Of a stretch of DNA of 32,000 nucleotides, positions 8,016-32,000 are shown one piece after another. The notes under the pieces are model-generated. The model did no database searches, was not told where the DNA came from, and saw only the letters and a program-made list of their open reading frames with translations. Position 1 is the stretch's first letter. The number at the start of each line of letters is the position of its first letter. Position numbers and translations under genes: made by a program. Origin of the DNA: Elusimicrobia bacterium RIFCSPLOWO2_01_FULL_59_12 (lineage in GTDB: Bacteria; Elusimicrobiota; Elusimicrobia; 2-01-FULL-59-12); contig MGUR01000014.1 in assembly GCA_001800075.1 (NCBI GenBank), positions 18,986 to 50,985 on the forward strand, in the 5' to 3' direction.

Positions 8016-8017
8016 TT

Positions 8018-11707: not shown

Positions 11708-11718
11708 TATCTCATTCT

Positions 11719-12344: not shown

Positions 12345-12354
12345 ACCTGCAAAA

Positions 12355-14073: not shown

Positions 14074-15291
14074 ATGTCTAGACAGACGTATGCATCGTCG
14101 GGGCACGCCTACGTGATCCTCGGCGCCGGCAAGCAGGGCGTCGCGGCGGCGTATGATGTGATTCAGCATGGCCAGGCCGCGCGGGTCACATTGGCCGACA
14201 ATTCGCTTCCCTTTGCCTGCGCCGCAATCAAGAAGCTGAAGCGGATTGCAGCCGCGCCTATTCAGAAGCATCAAATCACGTTAATGGCCGTGTCCGTGGA
14301 CGCCCGTAAAGAATCCGATTTGCGCCGCGTCATCGGAGGACACGATGCGGCGTTGAGCGCGCTGCCTTACTACCTCAACCCGGCGGTCGCCCGCGCGGCG
14401 GTTGCGGAAAAAGTGCACTATTGCGATCTGGGCGGCTATTTCGAGGCGACCCGGGAGATCATGAAGCTCCACGCGAGCGCCCGCAGGGCGGGCGTGACGC
14501 TGGTCCCGGACTGCGGCGTGGCTCCCGGGATGTGCAACAGTTTGGCGGTCAGCGGCATGGAACACATGACCCGGGTCCGCGACGTGCGCATTTATTGCGG
14601 CGGTCTTCCGCTGAAACCCCGCCCGCCCCTGGATTACAAAGTCGTTTTCAATTTGGAGGGGGTTCTCGGGAACTATTTCGGGAAATCCTATGTCCTTCGC
14701 AACGGGAAGGTTCAGCGGGTGCCGTCGTTCTCGGGGCGTGAAGAGATTTCGTTCGGCCGGTTCGGGACACTGGAAGCGGTCACCACCGGCGGGGCAACGT
14801 CCACCTGCCCCTGGACCTTCCGTAAGACGCTCCGCAATTATGACTACAAGACGTTGCGGTACCCCGGCCACTATGACAAAATCCAGTTCTTGAAGGATTT
14901 GGGCCTGCTCGAAACGTCTCACGTGCGCGTGAATGGCTACCGGATCGTTCCCCGGGAGGTGTTTGTGGCGGTGATCGGCCCGCGGCTGGCATTTCCCAGG
15001 GATCGCGATTTGTTGATCCAGCGCGTCGTTGTGTATGGCGAGTTGAAGGGGAAAAAAACGGAAGTGACGTATGATGTTCTCGATACCGGCGACGCCCGGA
15101 CCGGGTTCACCGCGATGCAGCGCACGACAGGCTTTTCGGCGGCGATTATTTTGGAGATGCTGGCCCAGGGCCATATTCTTCAGAAGGGATTTGTCCCCGT
15201 GGAAAAAGCGGTTCCCGGGTACGTGTTTCTCAAAGAGATTCGGAAGCGGGGAATTGATGTGAAGGAAAGGATCCGCATAGAGCAAAAATGA
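14074..15291 (+). CDS. saccharopine dehydrogenase-family NAD(P) oxidoreductase (candidate lysine 6-dehydrogenase)
   Basis: N-terminal Rossmann motif VILGAGKQGVAAAYD. The size of about 400 aa and the C-terminal Sacchrp_dh_C-like region (YPGHYDK, GFTAMQRTTG) fit the family. Substrate specificity is inferred from gene context only. Confidence 0.75.
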   Translation: MSRQTYASSGHAYVILGAGKQGVAAAYDVIQHGQAARVTLADNSLPFACAAIKKLKRIAAAPIQKHQITLMAVSVDARKESDLRRVIGGHDAALSALPYYLNPAVARAAVAEKVHYCDLGGYFEATREIMKLHASARRAGVTLVPDCGVAPGMCNSLAVSGMEHMTRVRDVRIYCGGLPLKPRPPLDYKVVFNLEGVLGNYFGKSYVLRNGKVQRVPSFSGREEISFGRFGTLEAVTTGGATSTCPWTFRKTLRNYDYKTLRYPGHYDKIQFLKDLGLLETSHVRVNGYRIVPREVFVAVIGPRLAFPRDRDLLIQRVVVYGELKGKKTEVTYDVLDTGDARTGFTAMQRTTGFSAAIILEMLAQGHILQKGFVPVEKAVPGYVFLKEIRKRGIDVKERIRIEQK

Positions 15292-16814
15292 AGAAATCGC
15301 TTTTGCAGTCCAGCAGACCCAAACTCCACAGCCATTTTATCAACGGCCGCTGGGGCCAGACGGCCCCCAACGGCAAATCCTTTGAAAACCGGGACCCCGC
15401 CAACGGCCAGCTGTTGAGCGTCTATCCCGAAGCCACCCGGCGGGACGTGGAGGACGCGGTGGCGGCGGCGCGCAAAGCCTTTGGAATGTGGCGTCAAGTT
15501 CCGGTCGCCAAACGCGGGGAGATCCTGCTCAAGGCCATGCGGTTCTTGGAGGAACGCAAAGAACCTTACGCGCATGCGATGACGCGCGAAATGGGCAAAG
15601 TCCTTTCCGAGACGCGCGGCGACGTCCAGGAGGCGGTGGACACCGCGTTTTATTATGCCGGCGAAGGCCGGCGGCTCTTCGGCCAGACGACCCCCTCCGA
15701 GCTGACAGACAAATTCGCCATGTCGGTGCGCGCGCCGGTCGGCGTCTGCGCGCTGATCACCCCTTGGAATTTCCCCATGGCGATTCCTTCCTGGAAAATA
15801 TTGCCGGCTCTGCTTTGCGGGAACACGGTCATTCTTAAGCCCTCCTCGTTTACCCCGGATTCCGCCCGCCATTTGGCGGAGGCGCTGCAAGAAGCCGGCG
15901 TGCCCGATGGGGTGATGAATCTGCTTTACGGCAGCGGGGCGGCGGTGGGGATCTGGCTGACGGAGCATCCCGGGATCGACCTGGTGTCTTTTACCGGGTC
16001 CTCGTTGACAGGGTCCAAAGTCGGAGAGACGTGCGGCCGGATATTCAAGAAATGCAGTCTGGAGATGGGAGGCAAGAACGCCCAGATCGTCATGGACGAC
16101 GCCGATCTTTCGCTGGCGCTGGAAGGGGCCCTTTGGGGCGCGTTCGGAACCACCGGCCAGCGCTGCACCGCGACCAGCCGCCTGATTGTCCACGAAAGGG
16201 TCTTCAAGGAATTTTCCGAACACCTGGTGGCCCGGGCGGAGTCGCTTCGCGTGGGGAATGGCCTGGACCCGAAGGTCCAGATGGGCCCGCTCATCAATGA
16301 CGCGCAGCGCGCCAAAGTTCACCAGTATGTTCAGGTTGGCAAAAACAAGGACGGCGCCACGCTTTTGACCGGGGGTCAGATCCTCTGCAAGGGGGACTTT
16401 GAGAACGGATTTTTCTACGCGCCGACGATTTTCCACGGCGATACGGGCATGACCATCGCGCAGGAGGAGATATTCGGCCCGGTGACGGTTCTGATCAGGG
16501 TGAAATCCTTCGACGAAGCGATTCAGGTGCTCAATGACAGCGTCTACGGCCTTTCGGGGTCCATTTACACCCAGGACGTTAACCGGGTGATGCGCGCGAT
16601 CCGCGATATGCAGACCGGGATCACCTACGTCAACGCGCCGACGATCGGGGCGGAGGTCCACCTTCCCTTCGGAGGCGTGAAGCGTACCGGAAACGGCCAC
16701 CGCGAAGCGGGCGCGCAGGCGCTCGATATTTTTTCGGAATGGAAAGCCGTCTACATCGATTATTCGGGCAAACTGCAGAGGGCCCAGATCGACACGCATG
16801 GGTCCGAGGCGTAA
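15288..16814 (+). CDS. NAD(P)-dependent aldehyde dehydrogenase
   Basis: ALDH motifs ITPWNFP, FTGS, catalytic LEMGGKN (Glu) and GQRCTA (Cys), and EEIFGPV. The start overlaps the upstream stop (ATGA). Confidence 0.9.
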   Translation: MKKSLLQSSRPKLHSHFINGRWGQTAPNGKSFENRDPANGQLLSVYPEATRRDVEDAVAAARKAFGMWRQVPVAKRGEILLKAMRFLEERKEPYAHAMTREMGKVLSETRGDVQEAVDTAFYYAGEGRRLFGQTTPSELTDKFAMSVRAPVGVCALITPWNFPMAIPSWKILPALLCGNTVILKPSSFTPDSARHLAEALQEAGVPDGVMNLLYGSGAAVGIWLTEHPGIDLVSFTGSSLTGSKVGETCGRIFKKCSLEMGGKNAQIVMDDADLSLALEGALWGAFGTTGQRCTATSRLIVHERVFKEFSEHLVARAESLRVGNGLDPKVQMGPLINDAQRAKVHQYVQVGKNKDGATLLTGGQILCKGDFENGFFYAPTIFHGDTGMTIAQEEIFGPVTVLIRVKSFDEAIQVLNDSVYGLSGSIYTQDVNRVMRAIRDMQTGITYVNAPTIGAEVHLPFGGVKRTGNGHREAGAQALDIFSEWKAVYIDYSGKLQRAQIDTHGSEA

Positions 16815-16827
16815 GAAGGAGACCGCC

Positions 16828-17775
16828 ATGGCCTTGCAAGCGCCGCACCAGCAGATCAGCGTCCAGAGCGACAAGGAAAGTTTCCTCGTCCGGTTGTTCG
16901 ATACCCTGTACGCGCGGTACCGCGAACGGATGGCGTACGTCCGGATGTACGAAGAGCTTGTGATGTCCAACGGCGGGACATTCGTCAACGACCACATCGC
17001 CTTCCGCACGCTGGCGGCCGAAAAACCCGCGCTGGGCATTTTCATGATTTCGCGCATTTTCGAGGCGCTCGGCTACAGCTCGGCCGCCTGCTACGAATTT
17101 CCGGACAAACATTTCAGCTCGATCCACTACCAGCATCCGAACCCGCAGTTTCCCAAGCTGTTCATCACCCAGCTAAAAACCTGGGAACTCTCACAACGGG
17201 CCAGGGCCCTCCTTCAGAAATCCCTGAAAACCCACCTGCCGCACCTGTCCGATGCGAATATCGCCAGTCTGTACAACCTGGACAAGGCGTCGCAGGCGGA
17301 ACGGACCCGATTGCTCCGGCTGATGGTGCGCTATTTTGAGGAATTGCCCTGGGAATTGCCGCAGAAGAAAGACGTCCAGGAGCTGGATCAGGAAAGCCAG
17401 TTCGCGGCCTGGGTCCTGGTCAATGGGTACGACGTCAACCACTTCACGGCGTCAATCAATTCTCACGGCGCGGACGCGCTGGCGGATATCGATAAAACGG
17501 TGGCCGCGATGCGCCGGGCGGGAATTCCGATGAAGCCGGAGATTGAAGGCGAGCCGGGAACCCAGCTGCGCCAGAGCTCCACCGAAGCGGTGGTCATCCC
17601 CGTGCCGGTGCGCGACGGGGTGCGAACCGCGGAAATCCCCTGGACCTACGCGTATTTCGAGATTGCCGAGCGGCCGCTCATGAAAAATCCCATGACCGGC
17701 AAGATGGAGCGTTTCGAAGGATTCCTCGGCGGCCAGGCCGCCAACCTCTTCGAAATGACCAAACTGAAGCACTAG
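16828..17775 (+). CDS. DUF1338-family metalloenzyme (HglS/YdcJ-like 2-oxoadipate dioxygenase/decarboxylase candidate)
   Basis: VNDHIAFRT and VNHFTASIN blocks resemble the metal-binding His motifs of DUF1338 as I recall them. AAGGAG lies 7 nt upstream of ATG 16828, 13 nt after the ALDH stop. Confidence 0.7.
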   Translation: MALQAPHQQISVQSDKESFLVRLFDTLYARYRERMAYVRMYEELVMSNGGTFVNDHIAFRTLAAEKPALGIFMISRIFEALGYSSAACYEFPDKHFSSIHYQHPNPQFPKLFITQLKTWELSQRARALLQKSLKTHLPHLSDANIASLYNLDKASQAERTRLLRLMVRYFEELPWELPQKKDVQELDQESQFAAWVLVNGYDVNHFTASINSHGADALADIDKTVAAMRRAGIPMKPEIEGEPGTQLRQSSTEAVVIPVPVRDGVRTAEIPWTYAYFEIAERPLMKNPMTGKMERFEGFLGGQAANLFEMTKLKH

Positions 17776-20299: not shown

Positions 20300-20866
20300 A
20301 TGGCAGACACACCCATACCGCCCGCACAGCCTGCGACTCCCTCTCCGGCCCCAAGCGCCGCGCCCGTCACGGCTCCGCCCGCCGGGGTCTCTCAAGACAT
20401 GTCTCGCCGTTCATTCCTGAAATTGGGCTGGGCGGCCTTTCTAGGTTTTCTGGCGTCCAGCGCGGGCGCCACGTTAAAATTCATCTTCCCGAACGTCCTC
20501 TACGAGCCGCCGGAAACGTTTAAAGCAGGCCGGCCGGAAGACTACGCCATCGGCGTGAGCCTTCGCTGGGCCAAGGAGCAGCGCGTCTGGATGGTTCGCG
20601 ACGAGCACGGCATCTATGCGATGTGGGCGCGGTGCACGCACTTGGGCTGCACCCCGAACTGGTTTCAGGCTGAAAACCGCTTCCGGTGCCCCTGTCACGG
20701 GTCTAATTTCTCCACGGTGGGTGATGTGATCGCCGGCCCCGCGCCGAGGCCGCTGTACCGCTGCGGGATCCAGCGGCTTCCTTCCGGCGAGCTCCTGGTG
20801 GACAAAAGTATTCTGGAAGGACGGCCCGGGCTCCGTGAGAAACCGCAATTTTTCGTCGCCGTCTGA
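20300..20866 (+). CDS. Rieske [2Fe-2S] subunit of a cytochrome bc/b6f-type complex
   Basis: Tat-like SRRSFLKLG plus a TM segment. Cluster-binding boxes CTHLGC and CPCHGS. There is a Pro/Ala-rich N-terminal extension; the alternative start ATG 20399 would begin directly at MSRRSFL. Confidence 0.88.
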
Positions 20867-22512
20867 TGAAACTCCCCCTGCCTCCCCTCCCCAGCGCGGA
20901 AGAACTCAGAAAGAAAATCATCGATTCGCAGATCTGGCGTTCCATGTTTCGCGGCGGCCTTTGGAAGGACACGCCGCGCGACCGCGCCCAGCACATCCTC
21001 GGCAACGTCTGGCTTCACCTGCACCCGTCCCGCGTCCGCAAGCACGGGCTCAAGTGGACGTATACGTTCGGGTTGGGGGGCCTTTCCTTCTTTCTCTTCC
21101 TGGTCCTGACGGTCACCGGCGTGCTCCTGATGTTCTACTACCGCCCCACCGTGGAACTGGCTTACCGCGACATGAAGGATCTGGAATACGCCGTCAGCAT
21201 GGGCAGTTTCCTCCGCGCCATGCACCGATGGTCCGCGCACGCCATGGTGCTGATCGTGATCCTGCACATGGCCCGGGTGTTCATGACCGGCTCCTACAAA
21301 AGCCCGCGCGAATTCAACTGGTCGGTCGGCGTGGTGCTTCTGACCCTGACGCTCCTGCTCTCCTTCACCGGCTATCTGCTGCCCTGGGACCAGCTGGCGC
21401 TTTGGGCGGTCACGGTCGGGACCAACATGGGGGCCGCCACGCCGCTTCTGGGGGCCGAAGGGCCCTTCGCGATCCTGGGTCGGGGAAACGACGTCCGTTT
21501 TGTGCTGCTCGGCGGCAAGGCCGTGGGCGCCAATACGCTCCTGCGTTTTTATGTGCTGCATTGTGTGGCCCTGCCCCTGATCGCGGGCGCGCTGATGATC
21601 GTGCATTTCTGGCGCATCCGCAAAGACACCTTCTCCGGCCCGGTCATCAAACCCGAGCAGCTTCCGCATGATAAGGTCGACACCTGGCCGCATCTGATCG
21701 TCCGCGAATACATCGCGGCGCTTTTGTGCATGGTCGTCCTGTCCGCCTGGTCGCTCTGGATCAAAGCGCCGCTGGAGGAAATCGCCAACCCCACGGTGAC
21801 CCCGAACCCCTCCAAGGCCCCGTGGTACTTCACGGGTCTCCAAGAATTGCTGGTCTATTTCGATCCCTGGATCGCCGGGGTTGTTCTCCCGACCCTGATC
21901 ATCATCGGGCTGATGGCCATCCCTTATCTGGACCCGGACAAAAACCGGGGCGTGGGCTCCTACGCCTTCAAGGAACGGCCTTTCGCGCAGACATTTTTCG
22001 GGCTCGGCATGGCGATGTGGTTCATCCTGATCGCCATCGGATCCTTCCTGCGCGGCCCCAACTGGGACATCTACTGGCCGTGGGAAAGCTGGTCGGTCCA
22101 CAAACCGCCGCCGCCCGCGACCTGGAGTCCTCCTTTGGTGTGGGGGGCCCTGTGCGTCGGCGCCTATTTCGCGCTGGGCATGATACTCCCGCGGCTGGGT
22201 AAACCTGATTTTGATTGGAAGAAAGCGCTTCGCAACGGCGCCGCGGCGGTCGTCGGGGCCTCCACCGTTCTCAAACTGGCCGCGGACCTTCGCTGGGCTC
22301 AGGCGGGCTGGCTGATATTCTTCGGTTACCTGTATTACGTGCTCGGGATCCTGGTGCCGCGGAAGCACCTGGCCAATCTCGACAAGGTCCGGTATGCGGT
22401 CACGATGATGCTGGTCCTGCTCACGCTCGGCGTCCTGATGAAAATGGGCGTGCGGCTCGGGTTCGCCATCAAATATGTCCTGACCATTCCCCAGTTCAGC
22501 TTGAACATCTGA
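20866..22512 (+). CDS. cytochrome b (fused b6-like + subunit IV-like + extra C-terminal helices)
   Basis: His-containing helices ([17 protein letters not shown], ...[11 protein letters not shown]), [10 protein letters not shown] and the Qo-site region KAPWYF. It is 548 aa, longer than classical cytochrome b. The start overlaps the Rieske stop (TGATG). Confidence 0.9.
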
Positions 22513-22524
22513 TGCGCTACCTTC

Positions 22525-22592
22525 GTCATTCCCGCGCAAGCGGGAATCCAGTGTCGTCAAAGCCTCTGGACCCCCGCTTTCGCGGGGGTGAC
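22525..22592 (+). repeat. family-A palindromic element, three-hairpin form (intercistronic)
   Basis: GTCATTCCCGCgcaaGCGGGAATCCAGTGtcgtcaaagcctCTGGACCCCCGCtttcGCGGGGGTGAC. It lies between the cytochrome b stop and the multihaem cytochrome start. Confidence 0.8.
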
Positions 22593-24516: not shown

Positions 24517-24588
24517 CGTTCAACCCCCTCCCCCGGTTGTTTTAGGTAGTGAATTTCGTCGAGATACCTGCTATAACAGGACCCACAG

Positions 24589-25884
24589 ATGGCTGATGAA
24601 AAGTTTGACAGCATTGTCGTAGGCGCCGGCCCGGCGGGCGTGTCCGCAGCCCTCACCATGGCCCAGGCGGGCCTGAACGTGGCGCTTCTGGAACGCGGCG
24701 AATACGCCGGGGCCAAAAACGTCCAGGGCGCGGTGCTTTATTCCAAAATGCTGGAGGATGTCGTTCCGGAGTTCTGGAAGGACGCGCCGCTGGAACGCGC
24801 GATCGTGGAAGAACGGCTCTGGGTGTTGACGGAGGATTCCGGCATCCAGGTCGGCTACAAATCCGCCAAGTACAACAGCGTCCCCGCCAACTGCTACACC
24901 ATCATCCGCGTCGAGTTCGACAAATGGTTCGCCAAGAAGGCGGAAGCGGCCGGCGTGACGCTGATCACCGGCGTGACGGTCGACGACGTGCTGAAGAAGG
25001 ACGGCGATATCATCGGCGTGAAAACCACGGAGGGCGACCGGCTGTTGGCCGATGTGGTCATCGCCTGCGATGGGGCCAATTCCATCATTTCCCAGAAGGC
25101 GGGCCTGCACCGGGAGTGGAAGCCGGAAGAAGTCGCCCTGGGCGTCAAAGAGGTGCTTTTTCTTCCTCGGGAAAAAATCGAAGACCGTTTTAATCTGGAA
25201 GGCGATCAGGGGAGCACCACCGAAATGCTGGGGGATATCACCCAGGGGATGCTGGGGTATGCGTTTCTCTACACCAACAAGGAGTCGCTGGCGCTCGGCG
25301 TGGGTTGCGCCGTCGATGATTTTCAGCGCACCCGTATCAAGCCTTACGAGTTGCTGGAAGAGATCAAACGCCATCCGATGATCCGGCGGCTGATCGCCGG
25401 GTCCAAGACCCTGGAATATTCAGCCCACTTGATCCCCGAAGGGGGCTACAACTCCATGCCGCCGCTTTATACGGGCGGGATGCTCTTGGCCGGGGACGCG
25501 GCCCAGATGATCAATCCGACGCATCGCGAAGGGTCCAATTTGGCGATGGCATCCGGCAAGCTGGCGGCCGAAACCGTGATCGAAGCGAAAAAGCGCAACA
25601 ACTACTCCGCCCGATCCCTGGGGCTCTATCGCAAGAAGCTGGAAGAGTCATTCGTTTTGAAGGACATGGACGATCACAAGGATATCGAGGAAAAAGTCCG
25701 CCAGAACCGGGATATCATGACAATCTACCCCAAGCTGGCGTGCGAGTCCGCGCATGAATATTTCATTGTGGACGGGCTTCCGAAACGCGACCATCAACGG
25801 CGCATCATCCGGCGCATCCGCCGGCAGCGCGGCATTTTCCAGATGATCAAAGACTTCATGAGTTTAAGGCACGCGATCGGGTAG
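24589..25884 (+). CDS. fixC: electron-transfer-flavoprotein:quinone oxidoreductase FixC
   Basis: FDSIVVGAGPAGVSAALTMAQAG FAD fingerprint. It is colinear with FixC as I recall it (ERGEY.G.KNVQGA.LY...). It is followed by fixX. Confidence 0.88.
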   Translation: MADEKFDSIVVGAGPAGVSAALTMAQAGLNVALLERGEYAGAKNVQGAVLYSKMLEDVVPEFWKDAPLERAIVEERLWVLTEDSGIQVGYKSAKYNSVPANCYTIIRVEFDKWFAKKAEAAGVTLITGVTVDDVLKKDGDIIGVKTTEGDRLLADVVIACDGANSIISQKAGLHREWKPEEVALGVKEVLFLPREKIEDRFNLEGDQGSTTEMLGDITQGMLGYAFLYTNKESLALGVGCAVDDFQRTRIKPYELLEEIKRHPMIRRLIAGSKTLEYSAHLIPEGGYNSMPPLYTGGMLLAGDAAQMINPTHREGSNLAMASGKLAAETVIEAKKRNNYSARSLGLYRKKLEESFVLKDMDDHKDIEEKVRQNRDIMTIYPKLACESAHEYFIVDGLPKRDHQRRIIRRIRRQRGIFQMIKDFMSLRHAIG

Positions 25885-25981: not shown

Positions 25982-26281
25982 ATGGCTGAAGAACCCAAAC
26001 CGATGTCCCTGGAAGACAAATTAGGCCTGCTGACGTATAAAAACGACCACCAGACCCACATCAAGCTGCTGGACGCCAATGTCTGCCTGAAATGCCCCGA
26101 CAAACCCTGCGCGACGGGGTGCCCGGCGGGCGTGTATGTCTGGGACGAGCCGCAGAAGAAAATCGTGGTGTCCTATGAAAACTGCATCGAGTGCGGCGCG
26201 GCCCGGATGCTCTGCCCGTACAACAATATCGAGTGGCAACCGCCCCGGGGCGGCTTCGGGGTGTCGTACAAATATGGATGA
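25982..26281 (+). CDS. fixX: ferredoxin-like protein FixX
   Basis: 99 aa. The Cys pattern C..CPDKPC...CPAG...CIECGA....CP is typical of FixX. The gene lies directly downstream of fixC. Confidence 0.85.
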   Translation: MAEEPKPMSLEDKLGLLTYKNDHQTHIKLLDANVCLKCPDKPCATGCPAGVYVWDEPQKKIVVSYENCIECGAARMLCPYNNIEWQPPRGGFGVSYKYG

Positions 26282-26378
26282 AAAGGAATAGCAAGGAATA
26301 TCATGGAAGATCACGGAAAAAGATAGTCCCTCCTAGTCCATTCTATTCCTTGATAGTCCCTGTTCTTCCCTGAGATTT

Positions 26379-26669
26379 ATGAGCGAATCCTCCGCAGTTC
26401 CATCGCCACGACCCCCAAAACACTTTACGCCCGCAGAGATTGCGGAGTTGAAAGTCCGCGTGGAAGCCGTGCTGGACAAGATCCGCCCGGCGATCCGGAT
26501 GGACGGCGGAGACGTGGATCTGGTGGATATCACGCCCGATGGCGTCGCGGTGGTCCAGTTGACGGGTCATTGCGAGACCTGTTCGCTCTCGCCGATGACC
26601 ATGAAGCTGGGCGTGGAACGGATGATCGCGGAAGAAGTGCCGGAAATTACCGGAGTGGAATCAGTCTAG
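26379..26669 (+). CDS. NifU C-terminal-domain (Nfu-type) Fe-S cluster scaffold/carrier protein
   Basis: VLDKIRPAIRMDGGDVDLVDI...V.L.G.CETCS.S..T.K.GVE pattern with the CxxC pair. Confidence 0.8.
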   Translation: MSESSAVPSPRPPKHFTPAEIAELKVRVEAVLDKIRPAIRMDGGDVDLVDITPDGVAVVQLTGHCETCSLSPMTMKLGVERMIAEEVPEITGVESV

Positions 26670-26704
26670 CGGCAACGTGATAACGCTTTTCCCTTACCAC
26701 GGTG

Positions 26705-27334
26705 TCACTTTGCCGCGTTGCCCCGGCTGTAGCTCTTAAGCTCCTTCACGTACTGCCCGCCGTCGTACTTAACCTGCCCCACGCCTTCCGCATACCACGC
26801 GTCTTCATCGATCACTTCCTTGCCGCGCTTCTCGTGATAATGCAGTTTGATGCAGTGAAATTTTCCCGCCGGGACGTCGATCTCTTCAAAGCCGACGACT
26901 TCCCCGTCGAAAATAATCGGTTTGTCCACCCACGCCACTTTTAAGCGGCCTTCCCAGTGGACCTTCGTCCCGGGTTGGAGCGGGTAGATGACCCGCGGCA
27001 CGGCCGGCGTAAACCGGGTGAATACCTCAGGCGTGTAGCCTTTGCTGAGTCCCAGTTTGTAGATAAAAATGCCCTTTTCCGACCGGGTCAGGAACTCCCG
27101 CATCTTCCCGCGTTTGTCCTTCTGTGTCAGGATCATTCCGGACTGTCCCTTTTCCTCCCAGGAACCTTCCACAACGACTTTCATCGTAAAGCGGTCTTTT
27201 TTTTCTTTGTTCAGGGTGTCGTATTCCCAGGAAAATCCTTTTTCCAGAGGAAAGTAAGAGTCGCTAGGAGCCTTCTCCGCCCAACCCGATGCGAGAACCC
27301 CGAACATCAGCCCCATCACCACAAGCCGTTTCAT
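26705..27334 (-). CDS. secreted protein, function unknown
   Basis: I place the start at ATG 27334 (MKRLVVMGLMFGVLASGWA|E signal peptide). The 29 extra codons of the ORF-track start (27421) are read from a family-A repeat. TATAAT ends 6 nt upstream of the ATG. Confidence 0.6.
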   Translation of the reverse strand: MKRLVVMGLMFGVLASGWAEKAPSDSYFPLEKGFSWEYDTLNKEKKDRFTMKVVVEGSWEEKGQSGMILTQKDKRGKMREFLTRSEKGIFIYKLGLSKGYTPEVFTRFTPAVPRVIYPLQPGTKVHWEGRLKVAWVDKPIIFDGEVVGFEEIDVPAGKFHCIKLHYHEKRGKEVIDEDAWYAEGVGQVKYDGGQYVKELKSYSRGNAAK

Positions 27335-27358
27335 GGGTGGATTATACCTTCCCAGGTT

Positions 27359-27474
27359 GTCATCCCCGCAAGTCGTTAGCGGGGATCCAGTCCCGGCCGA
27401 CGCTGGATTCCCGCCCTCCACACGACTGGGCGTGCGCGCTGGAAGTGTGGCGTGCGCGCTTTCGCGGGAATGAC
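27359..27474 (+). repeat. family-A palindromic element, expanded form
   Basis: GTCATCCCCGCaagtcgttaGCGGGGATCCAGTcccggccgacGCTGGATTCCCGC-(48 nt containing GGCGTGCGCGCT x2)-GCGGGAATGAC. It lies between divergent genes. Confidence 0.75.
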
Positions 27475-27532
27475 GACTTCATTTGTATCTATAAATAGAT
27501 GCGTTTATTGCTGTAAAAGTTTTGTTACGTCA

Positions 27533-27561
27533 TTGAAACCGGGGGGGTCGGGGGCTAGACT
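27533..27561 (+). promoter_or_regulatory. candidate promoter TTGAAA-N17-TAGACT for the rotor-stator cassette
   Basis: Hexamers and spacer counted directly. The spacer is G-rich (G7 and G4). The -10 element ends 9 nt before ATG 27571 and there is no SD, so the leader is absent or very short. Confidence 0.4.
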
Positions 27562-27570
27562 TGTCACGAA

Positions 27571-29472
27571 ATGAAAACTAGTCCAAAAATAAGGCTGGTT
27601 CTCACTTCAGCCATGTCCCTGTGGCTGGGGGCGGGCGTGATGCTGCCCGCCGCCGAAACGCAATCCCCCGACATGCAGCTCCTGGAGCAGGAATCCAAGT
27701 TTGAGCGTGAAAAAACGCAGTACCTCCAGGATAACGTTCTCGACAAGATCCTTGGGCCGGGCAAGGCGGTCGTGATCGTGGATGTGGAGATGGGGCTGGA
27801 AAGCCGCGCCACCGAGATGGGCATGGGCAAGAGCAAGAGCGACAAGAAGAAGAACGAAAGCGAAGACGGCGGCGGCCCCGTCGCTCCTTCCCGCGTGCTG
27901 GTCCCCGGGGTCCCGATGCCGAGGTCGGTCGCCCAGATCGAGGAAGACCGCGGCGGTTCCATGCAGGAAGCCGGCGGGCAGATGCAGCAGAAAAAGCTGG
28001 ACGTGCGCACCACGATCAAGAAGCTGCTGGTGACGGTCCTTTACGACAAACGCGTGCCGTCGGACAAGCTCCAAGCGGTGAAGCAGGCGATCATCGCGCT
28101 GTTGAAAGTCACCGAGTCTCAGATGGTGTTTACGCCGACGACCTTCACGGAAACGGTCTGGGAGCAGGTCCTCACCCCCAAGTGGATCATTCCGCTCGCG
28201 CTGGCGTTGTGGCTGCTGCTTTTTTTGTGGGGGCCGGTGGCCAGTTTTTTCCGCCGTCTGAACAGGGCGCTTGAAGACAAGACCCAGATGATCACGCAGA
28301 CGACCCAGATGAAGCAGGAGAGCGAATCATCCGAAGAGGCCGAAGCCGAAGGCGAAGGGGGGGGCGGCGGGGGCGGCGGTCTCGGTGAAGGGGGAGAGCT
28401 TCTCGAGGAAGAAAAGAAAGAGGGTGAGGACGAGATGAAAAAATTCGAGCCGTTCAAGTATGTCAACCCGGAAAACTTGAAGCGCCTGGCGTATCTGATC
28501 CGCAAGGAGGAACCCTGGATCATCGCTCTGGTGCTCTCCTACCTCAAACCGGAGTTTGCCAAAGAAGTGCTCGGCTCCATGCCTCCCGAACTCCAGGCGC
28601 GCGTCGCGATCGAAACCGCCACCATCCGGCAAACCTCTCTGGAGCAGGTCATGTCCATCGACGACTACATCAAGAAAAAGATCGATTTTGTCCTCGGCGG
28701 CCTTGAGAATCTGCTGAAGATCATGGACGAAGCCGACAAAACGACCCGGGAGACGATCTTAGAGTATTTGAAGAACGAAAAACCCCAGCTGTACGAGCGG
28801 GTCCGCGAGGAGGTCGTCCTGTTTGAAGATCTGCTCAAGTTCCCCGACGCCGCCATCCAGATCATCGTTCGGGAAGTCGGCACGGAGTCCCTGGCCCGCG
28901 CGTTGAAAGGGGCGTCCCCCGATTACCTGAACAAGTTCTTCCTCAACATGTCGGCGGGCGCGGCCGCCCTCCTGAAGGAGTCCATGGACTATGGCCGTCC
29001 GTTAACGCCCGAACAGATTGACGAAGAGCGCAAGAAGTTGATGGATGCCGTTTCGAAAGCGGAGCGTGACGGGAAAATCAACGTCCGGAAGCGGCGCAAA
29101 ATGAGCATGTTGGAGGGTGAAGAAGCGGTGGAGGACTCCATGTCCTCGGTTCAATTGGGACAGACCAAATCATCCGGGACGCCCGCAACGCCGCAGGGAG
29201 ACCCCCAGCAGGCGGCGGAGCACTTTCAGACAGGGATGGCCTTCTATCAGCAGGGCCAGTACGCCGAGGCCATTCAAAGCTTTCACTATGCCCTCCAGGC
29301 CCAGCCCAATCAGTGGCAGGTTTATCAATACCTGGGAGCGGCCTACTACGCCCAGGGGATGGGGACTCAGGCGATGGGGGCCTACGAGCGGATGCTGGAG
29401 TTGAACCCCAACGACCCCGGCCTGCGCGACTGGGTCAATCAATTGAAGGCGCAGCAGGGGGCCGCCCGGTGA
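27571..29472 (+). CDS. chimeric FliF-like (ring segment) / TM / FliG middle + C-terminal domain / TPR protein
   Basis: Hydrophobic N-terminus. The periplasmic segment has FliF/YscJ-family-like strands (ILGPGKAVVIVDVEM; KKLLVTVLYD). TM helix WIIPLALALWLLLFLWGPVASFF, then an acidic/Gly linker. FliG_M-like EPWIIALVLSYLKPEFAKEVLGSMPPELQARVA and FliG_C-like LFEDLLKFPDAAIQIIVREV..LARALKG....FLNMS.GAAALLKE. C-terminal TPR-like repeats (AFYQQGQYAEAIQSF..AL...P). Confidence 0.8.
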   Translation: MKTSPKIRLVLTSAMSLWLGAGVMLPAAETQSPDMQLLEQESKFEREKTQYLQDNVLDKILGPGKAVVIVDVEMGLESRATEMGMGKSKSDKKKNESEDGGGPVAPSRVLVPGVPMPRSVAQIEEDRGGSMQEAGGQMQQKKLDVRTTIKKLLVTVLYDKRVPSDKLQAVKQAIIALLKVTESQMVFTPTTFTETVWEQVLTPKWIIPLALALWLLLFLWGPVASFFRRLNRALEDKTQMITQTTQMKQESESSEEAEAEGEGGGGGGGGLGEGGELLEEEKKEGEDEMKKFEPFKYVNPENLKRLAYLIRKEEPWIIALVLSYLKPEFAKEVLGSMPPELQARVAIETATIRQTSLEQVMSIDDYIKKKIDFVLGGLENLLKIMDEADKTTRETILEYLKNEKPQLYERVREEVVLFEDLLKFPDAAIQIIVREVGTESLARALKGASPDYLNKFFLNMSAGAAALLKESMDYGRPLTPEQIDEERKKLMDAVSKAERDGKINVRKRRKMSMLEGEEAVEDSMSSVQLGQTKSSGTPATPQGDPQQAAEHFQTGMAFYQQGQYAEAIQSFHYALQAQPNQWQVYQYLGAAYYAQGMGTQAMGAYERMLELNPNDPGLRDWVNQLKAQQGAAR

Positions 29473-29696
29473 TTCGACTGCATCGCTTGAACGGGGCGGA
29501 GATCGTGGTCAATGCGGAACTCATCGAGTCGGTGGAGGGGCTCCCCGACACGGTCATCGCGCTGGCCACCGGCAACCGCCTGATCGTCAGGGAATCTGTC
29601 ACGGGCGTCATTGAACGCATCGTGGAGTACCGCAAAACCGTTTACGCGGGAGCCGCGTACTCCCCTGAGTTGTTGAAAAGAGAGGCCCGCCACTGA
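29469..29696 (+). CDS. flbD: flagellar protein FlbD family
   Basis: VIRLHRLNGAEIVVNAELIESVEGLPDTVIALATGNRLIVRESVTGVIERIVEYRK is colinear with FlbD (MIKLTRLNG.EF.LN..LIE.IEETPDTVI.L.NG.K..VKES..EVI.KI..Y) as I recall it. The GTG start overlaps the upstream stop (GTGA). Confidence 0.78.
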   Translation: MIRLHRLNGAEIVVNAELIESVEGLPDTVIALATGNRLIVRESVTGVIERIVEYRKTVYAGAAYSPELLKREARH

Positions 29697-29744
29697 GTCG
29701 TTGGCGGGTCCGCCGATGCCGTACTGGCGGAAAGGAGAGCGAAC

Positions 29745-29927
29745 ATGTCGCTAACCAACGTCGCAATGCTCGGGATCCTGATGGGGTTGGTATTCCTCGT
29801 TGTGGGGTTCCTCATGGAAGGGCCGCAGGCGGGCGCCGAACCGGCGTGGAACCGGGCCAAGCACGTTCACAAAAAAACGAAAAGGCGCATCGGCCGCGTG
29901 CCGCATTTACACCGTCACGCGGCGTAG
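29745..29927 (+). CDS. 60-aa single-pass membrane protein with a very basic tail, function unknown
   Basis: A good SD (AAAGGAG) lies 8 nt upstream. TM segment VAMLGILMGLVFLVVGFLM, then KHVHKKTKRRIGRVPHLHRHAA. I recognise no homology. Its position inside the flbD-motA interval argues that it is real. Confidence 0.45.
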   Translation: MSLTNVAMLGILMGLVFLVVGFLMEGPQAGAEPAWNRAKHVHKKTKRRIGRVPHLHRHAA

Positions 29928-29943
29928 CGGCCGTTCGTTTAGC

Positions 29944-30013
29944 CGTCACCCCCGCGGACGCGGGGGTCCAGTGGCGTTGACGTCCCTGGATCCGCCAGAC
30001 GTCCGACGGATGA
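29944..30013 (+). repeat. family-A palindromic element, degenerate three-hairpin form (intercistronic)
   Basis: GTCACCCCCGCggacGCGGGGGTCCAGTGgcgttgacgtccCTGGATCCGccagacgtccgaCGGATGAC. It lies between the small membrane protein and motA. Confidence 0.65.
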
Positions 30014-30033
30014 CAAAAATGGAGGAGTTTTAG

Positions 30034-30810
30034 ATGGATATCGCAACGCTCGTAGGGATTGTCGTCGGCATGGGGCTGGTCATCGTCGCGATTCTGCTCG
30101 GGGAAGGGATCGCCGGGTTCAAACCTTTCCTGAACTACGAGGCCTTCCTGATCGTGATGGGAGGGACGTTCTGCGCGCTGCTGGTGAACTATCCCATCGC
30201 CCAGGTCTTCGGCATCTTCAAGGTCTTGAAGAAGGTCCTGACGTCCAGCGGGGAGGACACCTCCGAGATCGTCACCACGTTTGTGAACTTCGCCAAAAAG
30301 GGCCGGACGGAAGGGTTCCTCGCTTTGGAAGGCGACGTCAAACTGGTGAAAAACGATTTCTTGAAGCGCGGCGTCCAGCTGGTGATTGACGGCTCCGACC
30401 AGGAATTCATCCGCAACATGATGGACACCGAACTGGGGTTCATCCGCGAGCGGCATAAAGTGGGACAGGAAATATTCAATTCGCTGGGCACCTACAGTCC
30501 GGCCTTCGGCATCATCGGAACGGTCTTAGGCATGATCCTGATGCTGAACTCCATCTCGGATGTCGAAGAGGTGCCGCGAAAGATGGCGCTGTGCCTGGCG
30601 GCCGCGTTTTTTGGTCTGGGGTCGGGGTACATGTTTTTTCTCCCGATGGCGGGCAAGCTGCGGCGCCGGTCGGAGGAAGAGCTTTTGGTCAAGGAAATCA
30701 TCATCCGGGGCGTCCTGCTGCTGCAAAGCGGGGTCAGCCCCAGCATCATGGAAGCCAATTTAAAAGCTTATCTCGAACCCGCCAAGCGAGCCCTGATTCG
30801 GAGCCAATAA
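30034..30810 (+). CDS. motA: flagellar-type stator protein MotA/PomA
   Basis: 258 aa with four TM segments. Cytoplasmic loop GRTEGFLALE (Arg91/Glu99, matching the spacing of E. coli R90/E98). Conserved prolines in SPAFGIIGTVLGM and FFLPMAGKL. Confidence 0.88.
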   Translation: MDIATLVGIVVGMGLVIVAILLGEGIAGFKPFLNYEAFLIVMGGTFCALLVNYPIAQVFGIFKVLKKVLTSSGEDTSEIVTTFVNFAKKGRTEGFLALEGDVKLVKNDFLKRGVQLVIDGSDQEFIRNMMDTELGFIRERHKVGQEIFNSLGTYSPAFGIIGTVLGMILMLNSISDVEEVPRKMALCLAAAFFGLGSGYMFFLPMAGKLRRRSEEELLVKEIIIRGVLLLQSGVSPSIMEANLKAYLEPAKRALIRSQ

Positions 30811-30814
30811 ACGC

Positions 30815-31615
30815 ATGAAACGCGAAATGATCGATGCCTCAGACCCGCGGGTGACCTTGATCGGCCACCCCGCGCCGGCCTGGCTGGTCAACTACGCGGA
30901 CCTGATGACCGAACTGTCCTGCTTTTTTATCATCCTCTATGCGCTGTCGGCGTCTCTGAACAAGGACGTGCAGAAGGCGAAAAAAGAGGTCGAAGAGACG
31001 ATGAAGCAGGAGCAGGTGCAGGGCCAGGTGAAAGTCGACAAAGAGGGCATGAAAATCACGCTCGAAGAGCAGGGGGAAAACGTTTTCTTCAACAGCGGTT
31101 CGGCCGATCTGTCACCCCGCATGAAGGAGATCATGGCCAAGATCGTGCCCTCGCTCCGCACCCTGGCCAAAGAAAACCACCAGATCATCGTCGAGGGCCA
31201 CACCGATGACGTCCCGATTCATAACCCCCAGTTTCCGTCCAATTGGGAATTATCCACCGCCCGCGCGACCAGCGTCGTGCAGTACATGATCCGAGGGCTG
31301 CAATTCCCGCCGGATCGTTTAGGGGCGATCGGATACGGGCAGTTCCAGCCGGTGGTCCCCAACGATTCCCCCGAAAACCAATCCCGGAACCGCCGCGTCG
31401 TGTTTTTTGTGAAGAACGCCCCTGCGAAATTCAAATCGGAGAAAGAAGCCGCCCGGGAAGAAAACGTGCAGGAACACGCCCCGCCCGCCGCGGAGGATGC
31501 GGCTGGATCCGAAGGCGAATCGGCGCCGCCCCTGCCTGCCGGACAGGCCGGCGCTGAAGAACAAGACGTTTCCAACCCCATCCCGGAAGCGGACAGCCAG
31601 CCCGTCAACGAATAA
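30815..31615 (+). CDS. motB: flagellar-type stator protein MotB (OmpA-like C-terminal domain)
   Basis: N-terminal AWLVNYADLMTELSCFFIILYA contains the conserved channel Asp. OmpA_C block FFNSGSADL...VEGHTDDVPI...SNWELSTARA..V......RL.A.GYG...P...N......NRRV. Acidic low-complexity tail. Confidence 0.88.
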   Translation: MKREMIDASDPRVTLIGHPAPAWLVNYADLMTELSCFFIILYALSASLNKDVQKAKKEVEETMKQEQVQGQVKVDKEGMKITLEEQGENVFFNSGSADLSPRMKEIMAKIVPSLRTLAKENHQIIVEGHTDDVPIHNPQFPSNWELSTARATSVVQYMIRGLQFPPDRLGAIGYGQFQPVVPNDSPENQSRNRRVVFFVKNAPAKFKSEKEAAREENVQEHAPPAAEDAAGSEGESAPPLPAGQAGAEEQDVSNPIPEADSQPVNE

Positions 31616-31635
31616 TTCCTTATGTTACGTGTTAC

Positions 31636-31692
31636 GGTGCCTGGCACACAGCTAAAACCTACGCGTCCGCTGGGACACACGTGCCGGGCACC
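31636..31692. repeat. family-D inverted repeat GGTGCCTGGCAC / GTGCCGGGCACC with a 33-nt loop
   Basis: 12-bp stem including one G.U pair. Each arm is itself the palindrome GTGCC-N-GGCAC. It is preceded by tandem GTTACGT/GTTACG, and the right part is homologous (inverted) to 12370-12395. Confidence 0.55.
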
Positions 31693-32000
31693 TGTGGTAC
31701 ATATAAAAAAGTAGCGGGGTGGAGTCGGACCTAGCATTTCGGCAGGTGCTTAAATGTCCCCCGACCTCCGGCTGATTTCGGGGGTCCGGCGGGGGTAGGA
31801 TCGCGGCCATGGCCCCGCCACCTGCTTCCGAAGGAACCCGGCCGCGGCAGGCGGCCGAAGCGCTGAAAGTCCGGGTCAACGATCCTGCCCGCCCCACCTT
31901 AGACCTCGCCCGCGACCTCCAATCCCACCTGGACGCCTACCCTCAAAGCCAGAAAGAGCTATCTGAAAGCTGGGTGTTCCCCAGAAGCGTCCTTATTTAA

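What the first reader, a model, noticed from the sequence alone, without database searches (positions are those of the whole stretch)
27533..31615. Compact rotor-stator cassette built around a single FliF(ring)-TM-FliG(M+C)-TPR polypeptide
The first gene (27571-29472, 633 aa) reads as a natural chimera. It has an N-terminal hydrophobic anchor and a periplasmic segment of about 170 aa whose beta-strand blocks (ILGPGKAVVIVDVEM...; KKLLVTVLYDKRVPSDKLQAVKQAI) resemble only the last ring-building part of FliF/YscJ-family proteins. One TM helix and an acidic/poly-Gly linker follow, then FliG middle and C-terminal domains, with no FliG N-domain. The N-domain normally docks FliG onto the FliF C-terminus, and here the link is covalent. 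The protein ends in 2-3 TPR-like repeats at the end where canonical FliG simply terminates. The gene is overlapped (GTGA) by flbD and followed by a 60-aa basic membrane protein, motA and motB. Within the window there is no fliM/fliN, export gate, rod, hook or filament gene. The upstream neighbour is a divergent secreted protein and the downstream 400 nt look non-coding. Laboratory FliF-FliG fusions in Salmonella are known to be functional. A naturally fused protein that also lacks the FliF N-terminal ring domains and carries TPRs, packaged with its own stator, suggests one of two things: a minimal ion-driven membrane rotor used for something other than a flagellum, or a strongly derived basal body. 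I do not know of a described system with this architecture.
Basis: partly seen in the sequence, partly recalled or inferred. Interest (0 to 1): 0.85.

Follow-up and report, generated by a model that had tools for sequence, protein, structure and literature searches.

The report
Non-flagellar FliF–FliG rotor with stator
An uncultured Elusimicrobiota bacterium encodes a single protein that fuses the ring-forming end of the flagellar protein FliF to the torque-receiving part of FliG, next to its own MotA/MotB stator; it appears to be the core of an undescribed, non-flagellar ion-driven motor that is common in this phylum.

Summary
ORF 27571-29472 (633 aa) has six parts in order:
- a signal peptide or membrane anchor;
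- a periplasmic domain with the FliF RBM3/beta-collar fold (Foldseek: the top 19 PDB hits are all FliF S-ring/RBM3);
- one transmembrane helix;
- an acidic/poly-Gly linker;
- FliG_M and FliG_C domains, with no FliG_N;
- two C-terminal TPR repeats.

FlbD overlaps the stop codon (GTGA). A conserved 60-aa membrane protein follows, then a flagellar-type MotA and MotB.

The fusion is not an assembly artefact. At least 165 GTDB species genomes, almost all Elusimicrobiota, encode it.

The compact five-gene form seen here is a minority clade: 7 of 80 loci, plus this window. In the other 73 loci the same rotor lies directly downstream of a PorV/PorQ-family outer-membrane protein carrying TPRs. That protein is often preceded by a cargo gene ending in a T9SS-like C-terminal domain, including 12,000-15,000-aa giant proteins. 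A cytoplasmic coiled-coil protein and then FlbD-MotA-MotB follow the rotor.

No other flagellar gene was seen in the window or in nine annotated neighbourhoods. One preprint notes that non-flagellated Elusimicrobiota carry motAB, flbD and fliG and calls their role enigmatic.

Most likely this is a flagellum-independent rotor-stator driving an envelope machine, possibly one that handles surface proteins. Function remains inferred. High interest.

The parts
27571..29472 (+). 633-aa fusion protein: signal/anchor, FliF RBM3/collar-like domain, TM helix, linker, FliG_M, FliG_C, TPR
   Evidence: ORF. 100% identical to P0001 from Elusimicrobia bacterium RIFCSPLOWO2_01_FULL_59_12. Domain evidence.
27571..27654 (+). 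N-terminal hydrophobic segment (aa 1-28); either a Sec signal peptide or TM1
   Evidence: Hydrophobic window at residues 7-25. AF2 helix 5-19. Whether it is cleaved was not determined.
27667..28155 (+). Periplasmic FliF RBM3 + beta-collar-like domain (aa 33-195). It includes a disordered loop, aa 85-139, that carries the invariant P112/P115/P117 motif 'PGVPxP'.
   Evidence: Foldseek ranks 1-17 and 19 are FliF S-ring/RBM3. Profile against PDB gives FliF, then SpoIIIAG. PF08345 hits in 21 of 39 relatives. Invariant columns.
28177..28254 (+). Transmembrane helix (aa about 203-228)
   Evidence: Hydrophobic window 206-224, score 2.24. AF2 helix begins at residue 203. G221, P222 and F226 are invariant.
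28336..28440 (+). Acidic/poly-Gly flexible linker followed by a short helix (aa 256-290). It occupies the position of the FliF C-terminal peptide and FliG_N.
   Evidence: pLDDT below 50 for residues 256-277; sequence.
28480..28686 (+). FliG middle domain (aa 304-372); EHPQR motif changed to E313-E-P-W...R353
   Evidence: PF14841, E 1.4e-18. Alignment to T. maritima FliG 1LKV. Column counts.
28765..29082 (+). FliG C-terminal domain (aa 399-504), with an invariant Gly-Gly hinge (376-377) upstream and a torque helix at 455-474
   Evidence: PF01706, E 1.7e-28. 1LKV, E 2e-40. K455, F456, M460, S461, A464, K469, E470 and Y474 are invariant or nearly so.
29200..29466 (+). Two TPR repeats plus a capping helix (aa 544-632); cytoplasmic
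   Evidence: TPR_2/TPR_1 at 548-615. pLDDT about 95.
29469..29696 (+). FlbD/SwrD-family stator accessory protein; its GTG start overlaps the rotor gene's stop (GTGA)
   Evidence: PF06289, 83.7 bits; sequence.
29745..29927 (+). 60-aa single-TM protein with a basic tail, specific to the compact clade
   Evidence: TM at residues 6-24. Homologues at the same position in L001 and L011, and in 6 of 7 compact GTDB loci.
30034..30810 (+). Flagellar-type MotA stator subunit
   Evidence: PF01618. Full-length match to C. sporogenes MotA 6YSF/8UCS, E 4e-48, and to PomA. R91 and E99 correspond to E. coli R90/E98, and the two conserved prolines are kept.
30815..31615 (+). MotB: plug, TM helix with the channel Asp ('YADLMT'), OmpA-like peptidoglycan-binding domain
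   Evidence: PF13677 and PF00691. YADLMT present in 45 of 46 family MotBs.
26705..27334 (-). Divergently transcribed secreted DUF3108-like protein. It is conserved at this position in the compact clade; a link to the cassette is uncertain.
   Evidence: PF21347, 36.4 bits. Present in 5 of the 6 compact GTDB loci that have upstream sequence, and in P0022's contig.

Best explanation
The cassette encodes the core of a flagellum-independent, ion-driven rotor-stator.

Proposed assembly (inferred from the parts):
- The 633-aa protein oligomerises through its periplasmic FliF-RBM3/beta-collar domain into a ring just outside the inner membrane.
- Each subunit crosses the membrane once and places a FliG middle + C-terminal domain on the cytoplasmic face.
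- This builds an MS-ring-like and a FliG-ring-like structure from one polypeptide. The non-covalent FliF(C-terminus)-FliG(N) joint is not needed.
- MotA/MotB units are anchored to peptidoglycan by MotB's OmpA-like domain and assisted by FlbD. They conduct ions through the MotB Asp channel and push on the FliG_C helix, turning the ring.
- There is no type III export gate, rod or FliM/FliN switch.
- The C-terminal TPRs, the altered FliM-binding patch and the small membrane protein dock other partners.

In most Elusimicrobiota the same rotor is co-encoded with a PorV/PorQ-family outer-membrane barrel carrying periplasmic TPRs. It is also co-encoded with proteins that end in a T9SS-like C-terminal domain, some of 12,000-15,000 aa, and with a cytoplasmic coiled-coil protein. 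The most likely output is therefore mechanical work on cell-surface proteins: secretion, anchoring or movement along the surface. That would be analogous to the GldLM-driven T9SS/gliding apparatus.

In this window's clade only the motor core lies at the locus.

What is shown: the domain identities, their conservation, the gene linkage and the partial conservation of the rotor-stator charge interface. What is inferred: ring formation, rotation and the output.
For: - Domain identities.
- The fusion is genuine and under selection. There are 336 homologues at E <= 1e-3 in a capped search. Relatives occur in 165 GTDB species genomes. The alignment is continuous across the junction, with invariant residues in every domain.
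- The stator is of flagellar type and looks functional. It gives a full-length match to solved MotA/PomA. The basic residue at the E. coli R90 position is kept in 49 of 49 family MotAs, and the MotB Asp motif in 45 of 46.
- The interface appears to have co-evolved. FliG's D288 equivalent is E470 in 39 of 39 sequences. The R281 equivalent is G or N in 39 of 39, and its MotA partner E98 is Q in 40 of 49.
- Gene order is conserved. The order rotor-FlbD-(small TM protein)-MotA-MotB occurs in 7 compact loci. The order PorV/Q-like, rotor, coiled-coil protein, FlbD, MotA, MotB, lipoprotein occurs in most of the other 73.
- Partner A passes NCBIfam PorV_fam: 96.5 and 136.2 bits against a cut-off of 90. 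PGAP names it a PorV/PorQ family protein.
- The upstream giant proteins end in an FlgD_ig/T9SS-type-A-CTD-like domain.
- A TPR-less paralogue sits with its own MotA and two MotB genes, about 6 kb downstream of a CHU_C (type B CTD) protein.
- No flagellar gene is present in the window or in nine annotated neighbourhoods.
- Uzun et al. (bioRxiv 10.1101/2022.07.08.499144) report motAB, flbD and fliG in Elusimicrobiota lacking flagellar structural genes.
Against: - There is no experimental or structural evidence that the protein forms a ring or rotates. No multimer modelling could be run.
- The query itself has no significant sequence hit to FliF. Foldseek TM-scores are low (0.25-0.46) because of the long loop and the helices.
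- The rest of this genome could not be searched. A canonical flagellar regulon elsewhere is not excluded for this organism, and some Elusimicrobiota do have flagella.
- The PorV-like, CTD-bearing and coiled-coil partners are absent from the 32-kb window and from within 10 kb in the four compact-clade loci I could inspect. The surface-protein function is therefore extrapolated from relatives at 36-46% identity.
- Three of the five classical FliG charge residues are not conserved.
- Core T9SS components (SprA/Sov, GldK/L/M/N) were not looked for.
Confidence: 0.6

Rival explanations
1. It is the rotor of a true but strongly derived flagellum. The organism is flagellated, and fliF and fliG have fused and shed domains.
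For: All five genes belong to flagellar families. The flbD-motA-motB order is a normal flagellar arrangement in spirochaetes and Firmicutes (my own knowledge). A few Elusimicrobiota have full flagellar gene sets. Laboratory FliF-FliG fusions are functional (PDB 8z4d is such a fusion).
Against: - RBM1 and RBM2, which seat the export gate, and FliG_N are missing.
- The EHPQR FliM-binding motif is altered.
- The 80 related loci were screened only with HMMs for the cluster's own gene families, and the flanking genes those HMMs identified are PorV/Q-like, CTD-bearing and coiled-coil proteins.
- Nine Pfam-annotated neighbourhoods show no flagellar gene.
- The phylum-level survey finds these genes in genomes without structural flagellar genes.
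Confidence: 0.1
2. The ring is a static or only partly moving scaffold. MotAB energy is used Ton/Tol-like, to drive conformational work on an envelope partner rather than continuous rotation of a rotor.
For: 5:2 MotA-family motors power non-rotating outputs in Ton, Tol and other systems (my own knowledge; reviewed in the abstract listed). Three of the five FliG charge residues are lost. The TPRs and a cytoplasmic coiled-coil partner could tether the ring.
Against: The proteins are of the flagellar MotA/PomA type, not the ExbB/TolQ type. The FliG_C torque helix, the Gly-Gly hinge and one charge pair are conserved. The RBM3/collar fold is known from rotating MS-rings and from the static SpoIIIAG ring, so the fold alone does not decide the question.
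Confidence: 0.2
3. The fusion is an assembly or frameshift artefact, or the compact cassette is a decaying relic.
For: The source is a metagenome-assembled genome. The junction contains a low-complexity poly-Gly/acidic stretch.
Against: The same architecture is found in hundreds of independent assemblies, including a closed 2.7-Mb chromosome. MotA is 91% identical and the rotor 69% identical between the window and L001, with intact ORFs and conserved order. Invariant residues occur in every domain.
Confidence: 0.02

Closest known systems
Flagellar MS-ring/C-ring rotor (FliF + FliG) with the MotA5B2 stator
   Same: It shares the RBM3/beta-collar fold of FliF, the FliG_M and FliG_C domains with the Gly-Gly hinge and torque helix, a flagellar-type MotA/MotB with the channel Asp and an OmpA-like anchor, and the FlbD accessory protein.
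   Different: FliF and FliG are one polypeptide. RBM1, RBM2, the FliF C-terminal peptide and FliG_N are absent. The FliM-binding motif is altered. TPRs are added at the C-terminus. No export gate, rod, hook, filament or FliM/N genes are nearby. In relatives the rotor is linked to PorV/PorQ-like and CTD-bearing proteins.
Engineered Salmonella/Vibrio FliF-FliG fusions (e.g. PDB 8z4d/8z4g)
   Same: A covalent FliF-FliG link that still forms rings. 8z4d is hit by both halves of the query.
   Different: The laboratory fusions keep full-length FliF and FliG (945 aa). The natural protein keeps only RBM3/collar, the second TM helix and FliG_MC.
Type IX secretion / Bacteroidota gliding machinery (GldLM/PorLM motor, PorV shuttle, CTD cargo such as the giant adhesin SprB)
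   Same: A MotA-family ion-driven motor is co-encoded with a PorV/PorQ-family outer-membrane barrel and with very large proteins ending in a T9SS-like C-terminal domain. This holds in relatives, not in this window.
   Different: The motor is MotAB acting on a FliG/FliF-type ring, not GldL5M2 acting on a PorKN ring. No SprA/Sov, GldK or GldN was identified. The phylum is Elusimicrobiota. T9SS is regarded as confined to Bacteroidota/FCB (abstracts).
SpoIIIAG ring of the sporulation channel
   Same: An RBM3-like fold with a beta-collar insertion that forms a large ring outside the flagellum. It was the fifth-best profile hit.
   Different: It has no FliG and no stator, and is not known to rotate.

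Membership tests
FliG (TIGR00207 / Pfam FliG_N, FliG_M, FliG_C) | FliG middle and C-terminal domains | tested here: met
   PF14841 67.4 bits (cut-off 25); PF01706 99.4 bits (cut-off 23.3). 1LKV, E 2e-40 over residues 293-506.
FliG (TIGR00207 / Pfam FliG_N, FliG_M, FliG_C) | N-terminal domain that binds the FliF C-terminus; full-length equivalog score | tested here: not met
   The only FliG_N hit is 17.2 bits (cut-off 25) and falls on the M domain. TIGR00207 scores 138.5 bits against a cut-off of 226.7 and covers only profile positions 109-328.
FliG (TIGR00207 / Pfam FliG_N, FliG_M, FliG_C) | EHPQR FliM-binding motif and charged torque-helix residues (E. coli K264, R281, D288, D289, R297) | tested here: inconclusive
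   The motif reads E313-E-P-W...R353, so E, P and R are kept while H and Q are changed. D288 becomes E470 (39/39). R281 becomes G or N (39/39). D289 becomes S, E, A or T. The K264 position (residue 446) is basic (R or K) in 26 of 39 sequences.
FliF / YscJ (PF01514, PF08345) | RBM3 + beta-collar ring-building domain followed by a TM helix | tested here: met
   Foldseek ranks 1-17 and 19 are FliF RBM3/S-ring. The profile against PDB puts FliF on top. PF08345 is hit in 21 of 39 relatives and exceeds its gathering score in the paralogues P0334 and P0380. The query alone gives no Pfam hit.
FliF / YscJ (PF01514, PF08345) | RBM1 and RBM2 domains (PF01514) and a C-terminal FliG-binding peptide | tested here: not met
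   There is no PF01514 hit. Only about 30 residues precede the RBM3-like domain.
Flagellar stator MotA/MotB | MotA_ExbB channel domain, the cytoplasmic R90/E98 pair, conserved prolines; MotB plug, channel Asp, OmpA-like domain | tested here: met
   The best NCBIfam models are MotP, MotA and PomA (208-224 bits), but all fall below their equivalog cut-offs of 340-394. This is therefore a stator of flagellar type, not an ortholog of a named stator.
FlbD/SwrD (PF06289) | FlbD domain encoded next to motAB | tested here: met
   83.7 bits against a cut-off of 24.7.
Bacterial flagellum (as a system) | Type III export gate, rod, hook, filament, FliM/FliN | tested here: inconclusive
   None are present in the 32-kb window or in nine annotated neighbourhoods. 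A phylum survey says most free-living Elusimicrobiota lack them. The rest of this genome could not be searched with these tools.
Type IX secretion system | PorV/PorQ-family outer-membrane protein and CTD-bearing cargo | tested here: not met
   Absent from this window. In relatives, NF033709 scores 96.5 and 136.2 bits against a cut-off of 90. TIGR04183 scores 25.0 against a cut-off of 23 in one small protein, and 18.9-20.7 in two of the three giant proteins tested; the third (L008) has no TIGR04183 hit. FlgD_ig scores 24-30 bits.
Type IX secretion system | SprA/Sov translocon, GldK/L/M/N (PorK/L/M/N) core | not tested
   Not searched for. None were annotated in the inspected neighbourhoods.

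The most novel reading that the evidence does not exclude
Elusimicrobiota possess a previously unrecognised cell-envelope machine. In it, a one-polypeptide FliF-FliG ring driven by MotAB is independent of any type III secretion system. It powers the export, anchoring or surface movement of CTD-tagged proteins, including 12,000-15,000-aa giants, through a PorV/PorQ-like outer-membrane partner. This would be the first non-flagellar use of the FliG/FliF rotor. It represents either a descendant of the flagellar motor or a surviving relative of its pre-flagellar ancestor.
Probability: 0.4. Interest if true: 0.95.

Novelty: new variant of a known kind. Interest (0 to 1): 0.85.

Why it matters
The FliG/FliF rotor is known only from flagella. 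A stand-alone rotor-stator that lacks the export apparatus, rod and switch would show that the torque-generating core can exist and be selected for on its own. That bears directly on how the flagellar motor evolved: motor first, or secretion system first.

It also offers a much simpler system for structural and biophysical study of rotor-stator coupling: one rotor protein, MotA, MotB and FlbD.

The linkage in relatives to PorV/PorQ-like proteins and giant CTD-bearing proteins suggests a new secretion or gliding-type apparatus outside Bacteroidota. It would also give a first functional context for some of the giant genes of the PVC-related phyla, and a candidate explanation for motility of flagellum-less, magnetotactic Elusimicrobiota.

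Tried and rejected
- Pfam and NCBIfam on the query alone gave no FliF hit. I had to use family members, a profile and a structure model.
- Rfam on 26000-32000 returned nothing.
- The promoter/terminator scan was no better than shuffled sequence.
- The apparent 'second rotor copies' in several loci are unrelated TPR proteins.
- A Partner A HMM searched against all window ORFs matched only the rotor's own TPRs.
- Six of the seven literature searches found no description of the architecture or of the PorV link: FliG/MotA/Elusimicrobia, giant genes, non-flagellar FliG, FliF-FliG fusion, Elusimicrobia + T9SS/PorV, and FliG + PorV. Only Uzun et al. is relevant.
- The giant-gene preprint mentions no motor, and Meheust et al. 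say nothing on motility.
- I could not determine whether compact-clade genomes carry the PorV-like and coiled-coil partners, or flagellar genes, elsewhere.

Full report
**Source and gene layout.** The window comes from an uncultured Elusimicrobiota genome. The 633-aa product of 27571-29472 is 100% identical to a hypothetical protein of 'Elusimicrobia bacterium RIFCSPLOWO2_01_FULL_59_12'. The rest of the window encodes GlyS, a PilB-like ATPase, a GAF-HD protein, malate dehydrogenase, CoaX, BipA, a Rieske/cytochrome b/c complex, FixC/FixX and NifU. It holds no flagellar gene.

**C-terminal two thirds of the 633-aa protein.** This part is unambiguous.
- Pfam gives FliG_M (304-372, E 1.4e-18), FliG_C (399-504, E 1.7e-28) and TPR repeats (548-615).
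- Residues 293-506 align to the Thermotoga maritima FliG_MC crystal structure at E 2e-40.
- There is no FliG_N. TIGR00207 aligns only from profile position 109 and scores below its cut-off.

**N-terminal third of the 633-aa protein.** This part has no Pfam hit on the query itself, but four independent lines identify it as the last ring-building module of FliF.
- 21 of 39 family members hit PF08345 YscJ_FliF_C, best E 3e-6. More distant paralogues exceed Pfam's gathering score.
- A profile of the first 250 residues searched against all PDB sequences returns FliF as the four best hits, all over the RBM3 region, and SpoIIIAG as the fifth.
- AlphaFold2 models give helix 33-60, a long strand 66-82, a disordered loop 85-139, a long strand 141-159, helix 164-178 and strand 185-190. 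This is the alpha-beta-beta-alpha-beta ring-building motif with a collar-like insertion. pLDDT is about 90 outside the loop. A TM helix follows from residue 203.
- Foldseek against PDB ranks FliF S-ring/RBM3/collar structures at positions 1-17 and 19 (E 3e-6 to 1e-2, probability 0.87-1.0). PrgK and EscJ appear among the later ranks. TM-scores are low (0.25-0.46) because the model carries a long loop and long helices, so the ranking rather than the superposition carries the argument.

RBM1, RBM2 and the FliF C-terminal peptide are absent.

**The fusion is not an artefact.**
- A capped search found 336 homologues.
- 39 of these, down to 36% identity, align continuously through the TM helix and linker and have invariant residues in every domain.
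- A scan of one genome per GTDB species found relatives in 165 genomes. The best 80 are almost all labelled Elusimicrobiota, Endomicrobia or similar, and include a closed 2.72-Mb chromosome.
- A profile of the N-terminal domain alone finds 457 clusters at 50% identity in 1.84 billion representatives. These include TPR-less fusions of 470-570 aa that are also from Elusimicrobiota.

**The stator is of the flagellar kind.**
- MotA aligns over its full length to the solved Clostridium sporogenes MotA (E 4e-48) and to PomA. It keeps the R90/E98 equivalents and both conserved prolines.
- MotB has the plug, the 'YADLMT' Asp motif (45 of 46 family members) and an OmpA-like domain.

**The rotor-stator interface is partly conserved and appears to have co-evolved.**
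- In the FliG part, the Gly-Gly hinge (G376, G377) and most of the torque helix are invariant.
- The equivalent of E. coli D288 is E470 in 39 of 39 sequences, and MotA's R90 equivalent is K or R in 49 of 49.
- The other classical pair is lost on both sides. FliG R281 is G or N in 39 of 39, and MotA E98 is Q in 40 of 49; the window's clade keeps E.
- The FliM-binding EHPQR motif reads E-E-P-W...R, which is consistent with no FliM.

**Genomic context changes the picture of a 'compact cassette'.** I built HMMs for each neighbouring gene family and scanned 80 species-representative loci with up to 10 kb of flank.
- Seven loci, 66-70% identical to the window's protein, share the window's layout: rotor, FlbD, small TM protein, MotA, MotB. 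They usually have a divergent DUF3108-like gene upstream. The FixC/FixX genes seen upstream in the window and in three related contigs (L001, L011 and P0022's contig) were found by Pfam annotation, not by this census.
- The other 73 loci have a ~515-567-aa protein immediately upstream wherever sequence is available. This holds in 66 of 66 loci after correcting three ORF-merging artefacts.
- That upstream protein has a signal peptide, passes NCBIfam's PorV/PorQ family model (96.5 and 136.2 bits against a cut-off of 90) and is named accordingly by PGAP. It ends in TPRs.
- Downstream of the rotor comes a 457-1,201-aa protein with no signal peptide, a proline-rich N-terminus and coiled coil. It is therefore cytoplasmic.
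- FlbD-MotA-MotB follow in 38 of 52 non-compact loci with at least 6.5 kb of downstream sequence. A ~220-230-aa protein, a lipoprotein in at least L003, often comes next.
- Upstream of the PorV-like gene, 31 of 56 loci carry an ORF ending in an FlgD_ig/T9SS type-A-CTD-like domain. Eighteen of these run off the fetched locus. Three have called lengths of 12,492, 14,788 and 13,779 aa.
- In an Endomicrobiia-like subgroup the CTD protein is small (128-153 aa), a 1,600-1,855-aa coiled-coil/TPR protein is inserted, and MotAB lies beyond 10 kb.
- A TPR-less paralogue (L092) sits with its own MotA and two MotB genes. A CHU_C (T9SS type B CTD) protein lies about 6 kb upstream, separated from the rotor by five genes.

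**Mechanistic reading.**
- Shown: a protein combining the ring-forming, collar-bearing periplasmic module of FliF with the torque-receiving FliG_MC; a dedicated flagellar-type stator and FlbD; conservation and linkage across a phylum.
- Inferred: the protein forms an inner-membrane ring. MotA5B2 units anchored to peptidoglycan turn that ring by acting on FliG_C. The covalent link makes the FliF-FliG_N joint unnecessary.
- With no RBM1/2, export gate, rod or switch, the output cannot be a flagellar filament.
- In most lineages the co-encoded PorV/PorQ-like barrel, the CTD-bearing proteins (sometimes giant) and the cytoplasmic coiled-coil partner point to work on surface proteins. This would be analogous to the GldLM-driven T9SS/gliding machinery.
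- For this window's clade, only the motor core and a clade-specific 60-aa membrane protein are at the locus. Its output partner is unknown.

**Rival explanations.**
- A derived flagellar rotor in a flagellated cell is disfavoured by the missing domains, the context and the literature, but is not excluded for this genome.
- A non-rotating, Ton/Tol-like energiser cannot be excluded with these data.
- An artefact or relic is refuted by the conservation.

**Literature.**
- Uzun et al. (bioRxiv 10.1101/2022.07.08.499144) noted that free-living Elusimicrobiota lacking flagellar structural genes carry motAB, flbD and fliG homologues. They called the role unclear.
- They did not describe the FliF-FliG-TPR architecture or the PorV/CTD/giant-protein linkage.
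- No paper in the searchable library does either. The library omits most subscription journals, so prior description elsewhere cannot be excluded.

**Verdict.**
The cassette is the reduced form of a larger, phylum-wide cluster. Its function is still inferred.
- It is a new variant of a known kind, a flagellar-type rotor-stator.
- There is a substantial chance that it defines a new envelope machine.

Noticed in passing
L003 1-8088, L008 1-7952, L010 1-7974 (also L030, L041, L042, L048, L060, L061, L077, L087, L091): Giant genes (called products of 12,492, 14,788 and 13,779 aa) lie directly upstream of the PorV/PorQ-like gene and the rotor. Each ends in an FlgD_ig/T9SS-type-A-CTD-like domain. 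The giant-gene preprint does not mention this linkage.
   Followed up: partly
L092 (contig_50604 of ERZ25039590), 2115-13630: A TPR-less FliF-FliG fusion (496 aa, with PF08345 on record) has its own MotA and two tandem MotB paralogues. Upstream are a CHU_C (T9SS type B CTD) protein, a TPR protein, an ABC transporter and a Tricorn/PD40 protein. This looks like a second motor family in the same phylum.
   Followed up: partly
P0380 (847 aa, JGI contig of 211 kb): A histidine kinase (HisKA + HATPase_c) is fused in front of the FliF-like + FliG_MC module. It is either a sensor-coupled rotor protein or a merged gene call.
   Followed up: no
window 29947-29966: A stable 8-bp G+C hairpin (ACCCCCGC-GGAC-GCGGGGGU) lies between the 60-aa gene and motA. 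The 66-nt region folds at -33.8 kcal/mol, z = -2.85 against shuffles. It has no T-run and might set the rotor:stator expression ratio.
   Followed up: partly
window 26705-27334 (-): A secreted DUF3108-like protein is transcribed divergently from the rotor gene. It is conserved at this position in most compact-clade loci (L013, L014, L016, L017, L018, P0022's contig) but not in L001/L015. It could be a clade-specific partner, or simply inherited synteny.
   Followed up: partly
MotA of window (30034-30810) versus relatives: MotA is far more conserved than its neighbours. It is 65-91% identical across loci whose rotor proteins are only 35-69% identical. The E98-equivalent residue is Q in 40 of 49 family MotAs, alongside G or N at the FliG R281 position.
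   Followed up: yes
window 3968-6906: A PilB/MshE-type secretion ATPase (T2SSE + MshEN c-di-GMP-binding domain) is followed, with a 4-nt overlap, by a GAF + HD-domain protein. This is type IV pilus-related and separate from the motor cassette.
   Followed up: no
L023 (JBGFRZ010000082.1) and L068 (CALRXP010000100.1): One locus carrying the full extended cluster is labelled 'Ignavibacteria bacterium', and one is labelled 'Candidatus Endomicrobium trichonymphae'. These are probably binning or labelling issues. If they are real, they would indicate spread beyond free-living Elusimicrobiota.
   Followed up: no
window 20695-22560 (-), 15180-17057 (-), 24571-25374 (-): Long antisense ORFs (up to 625 aa) lie opposite genuine genes (cytochrome b, aldehyde dehydrogenase, FixC). 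The one tested (20695-22557) has no Pfam hit. These are shadow ORFs typical of ~60% G+C DNA.
   Followed up: partly
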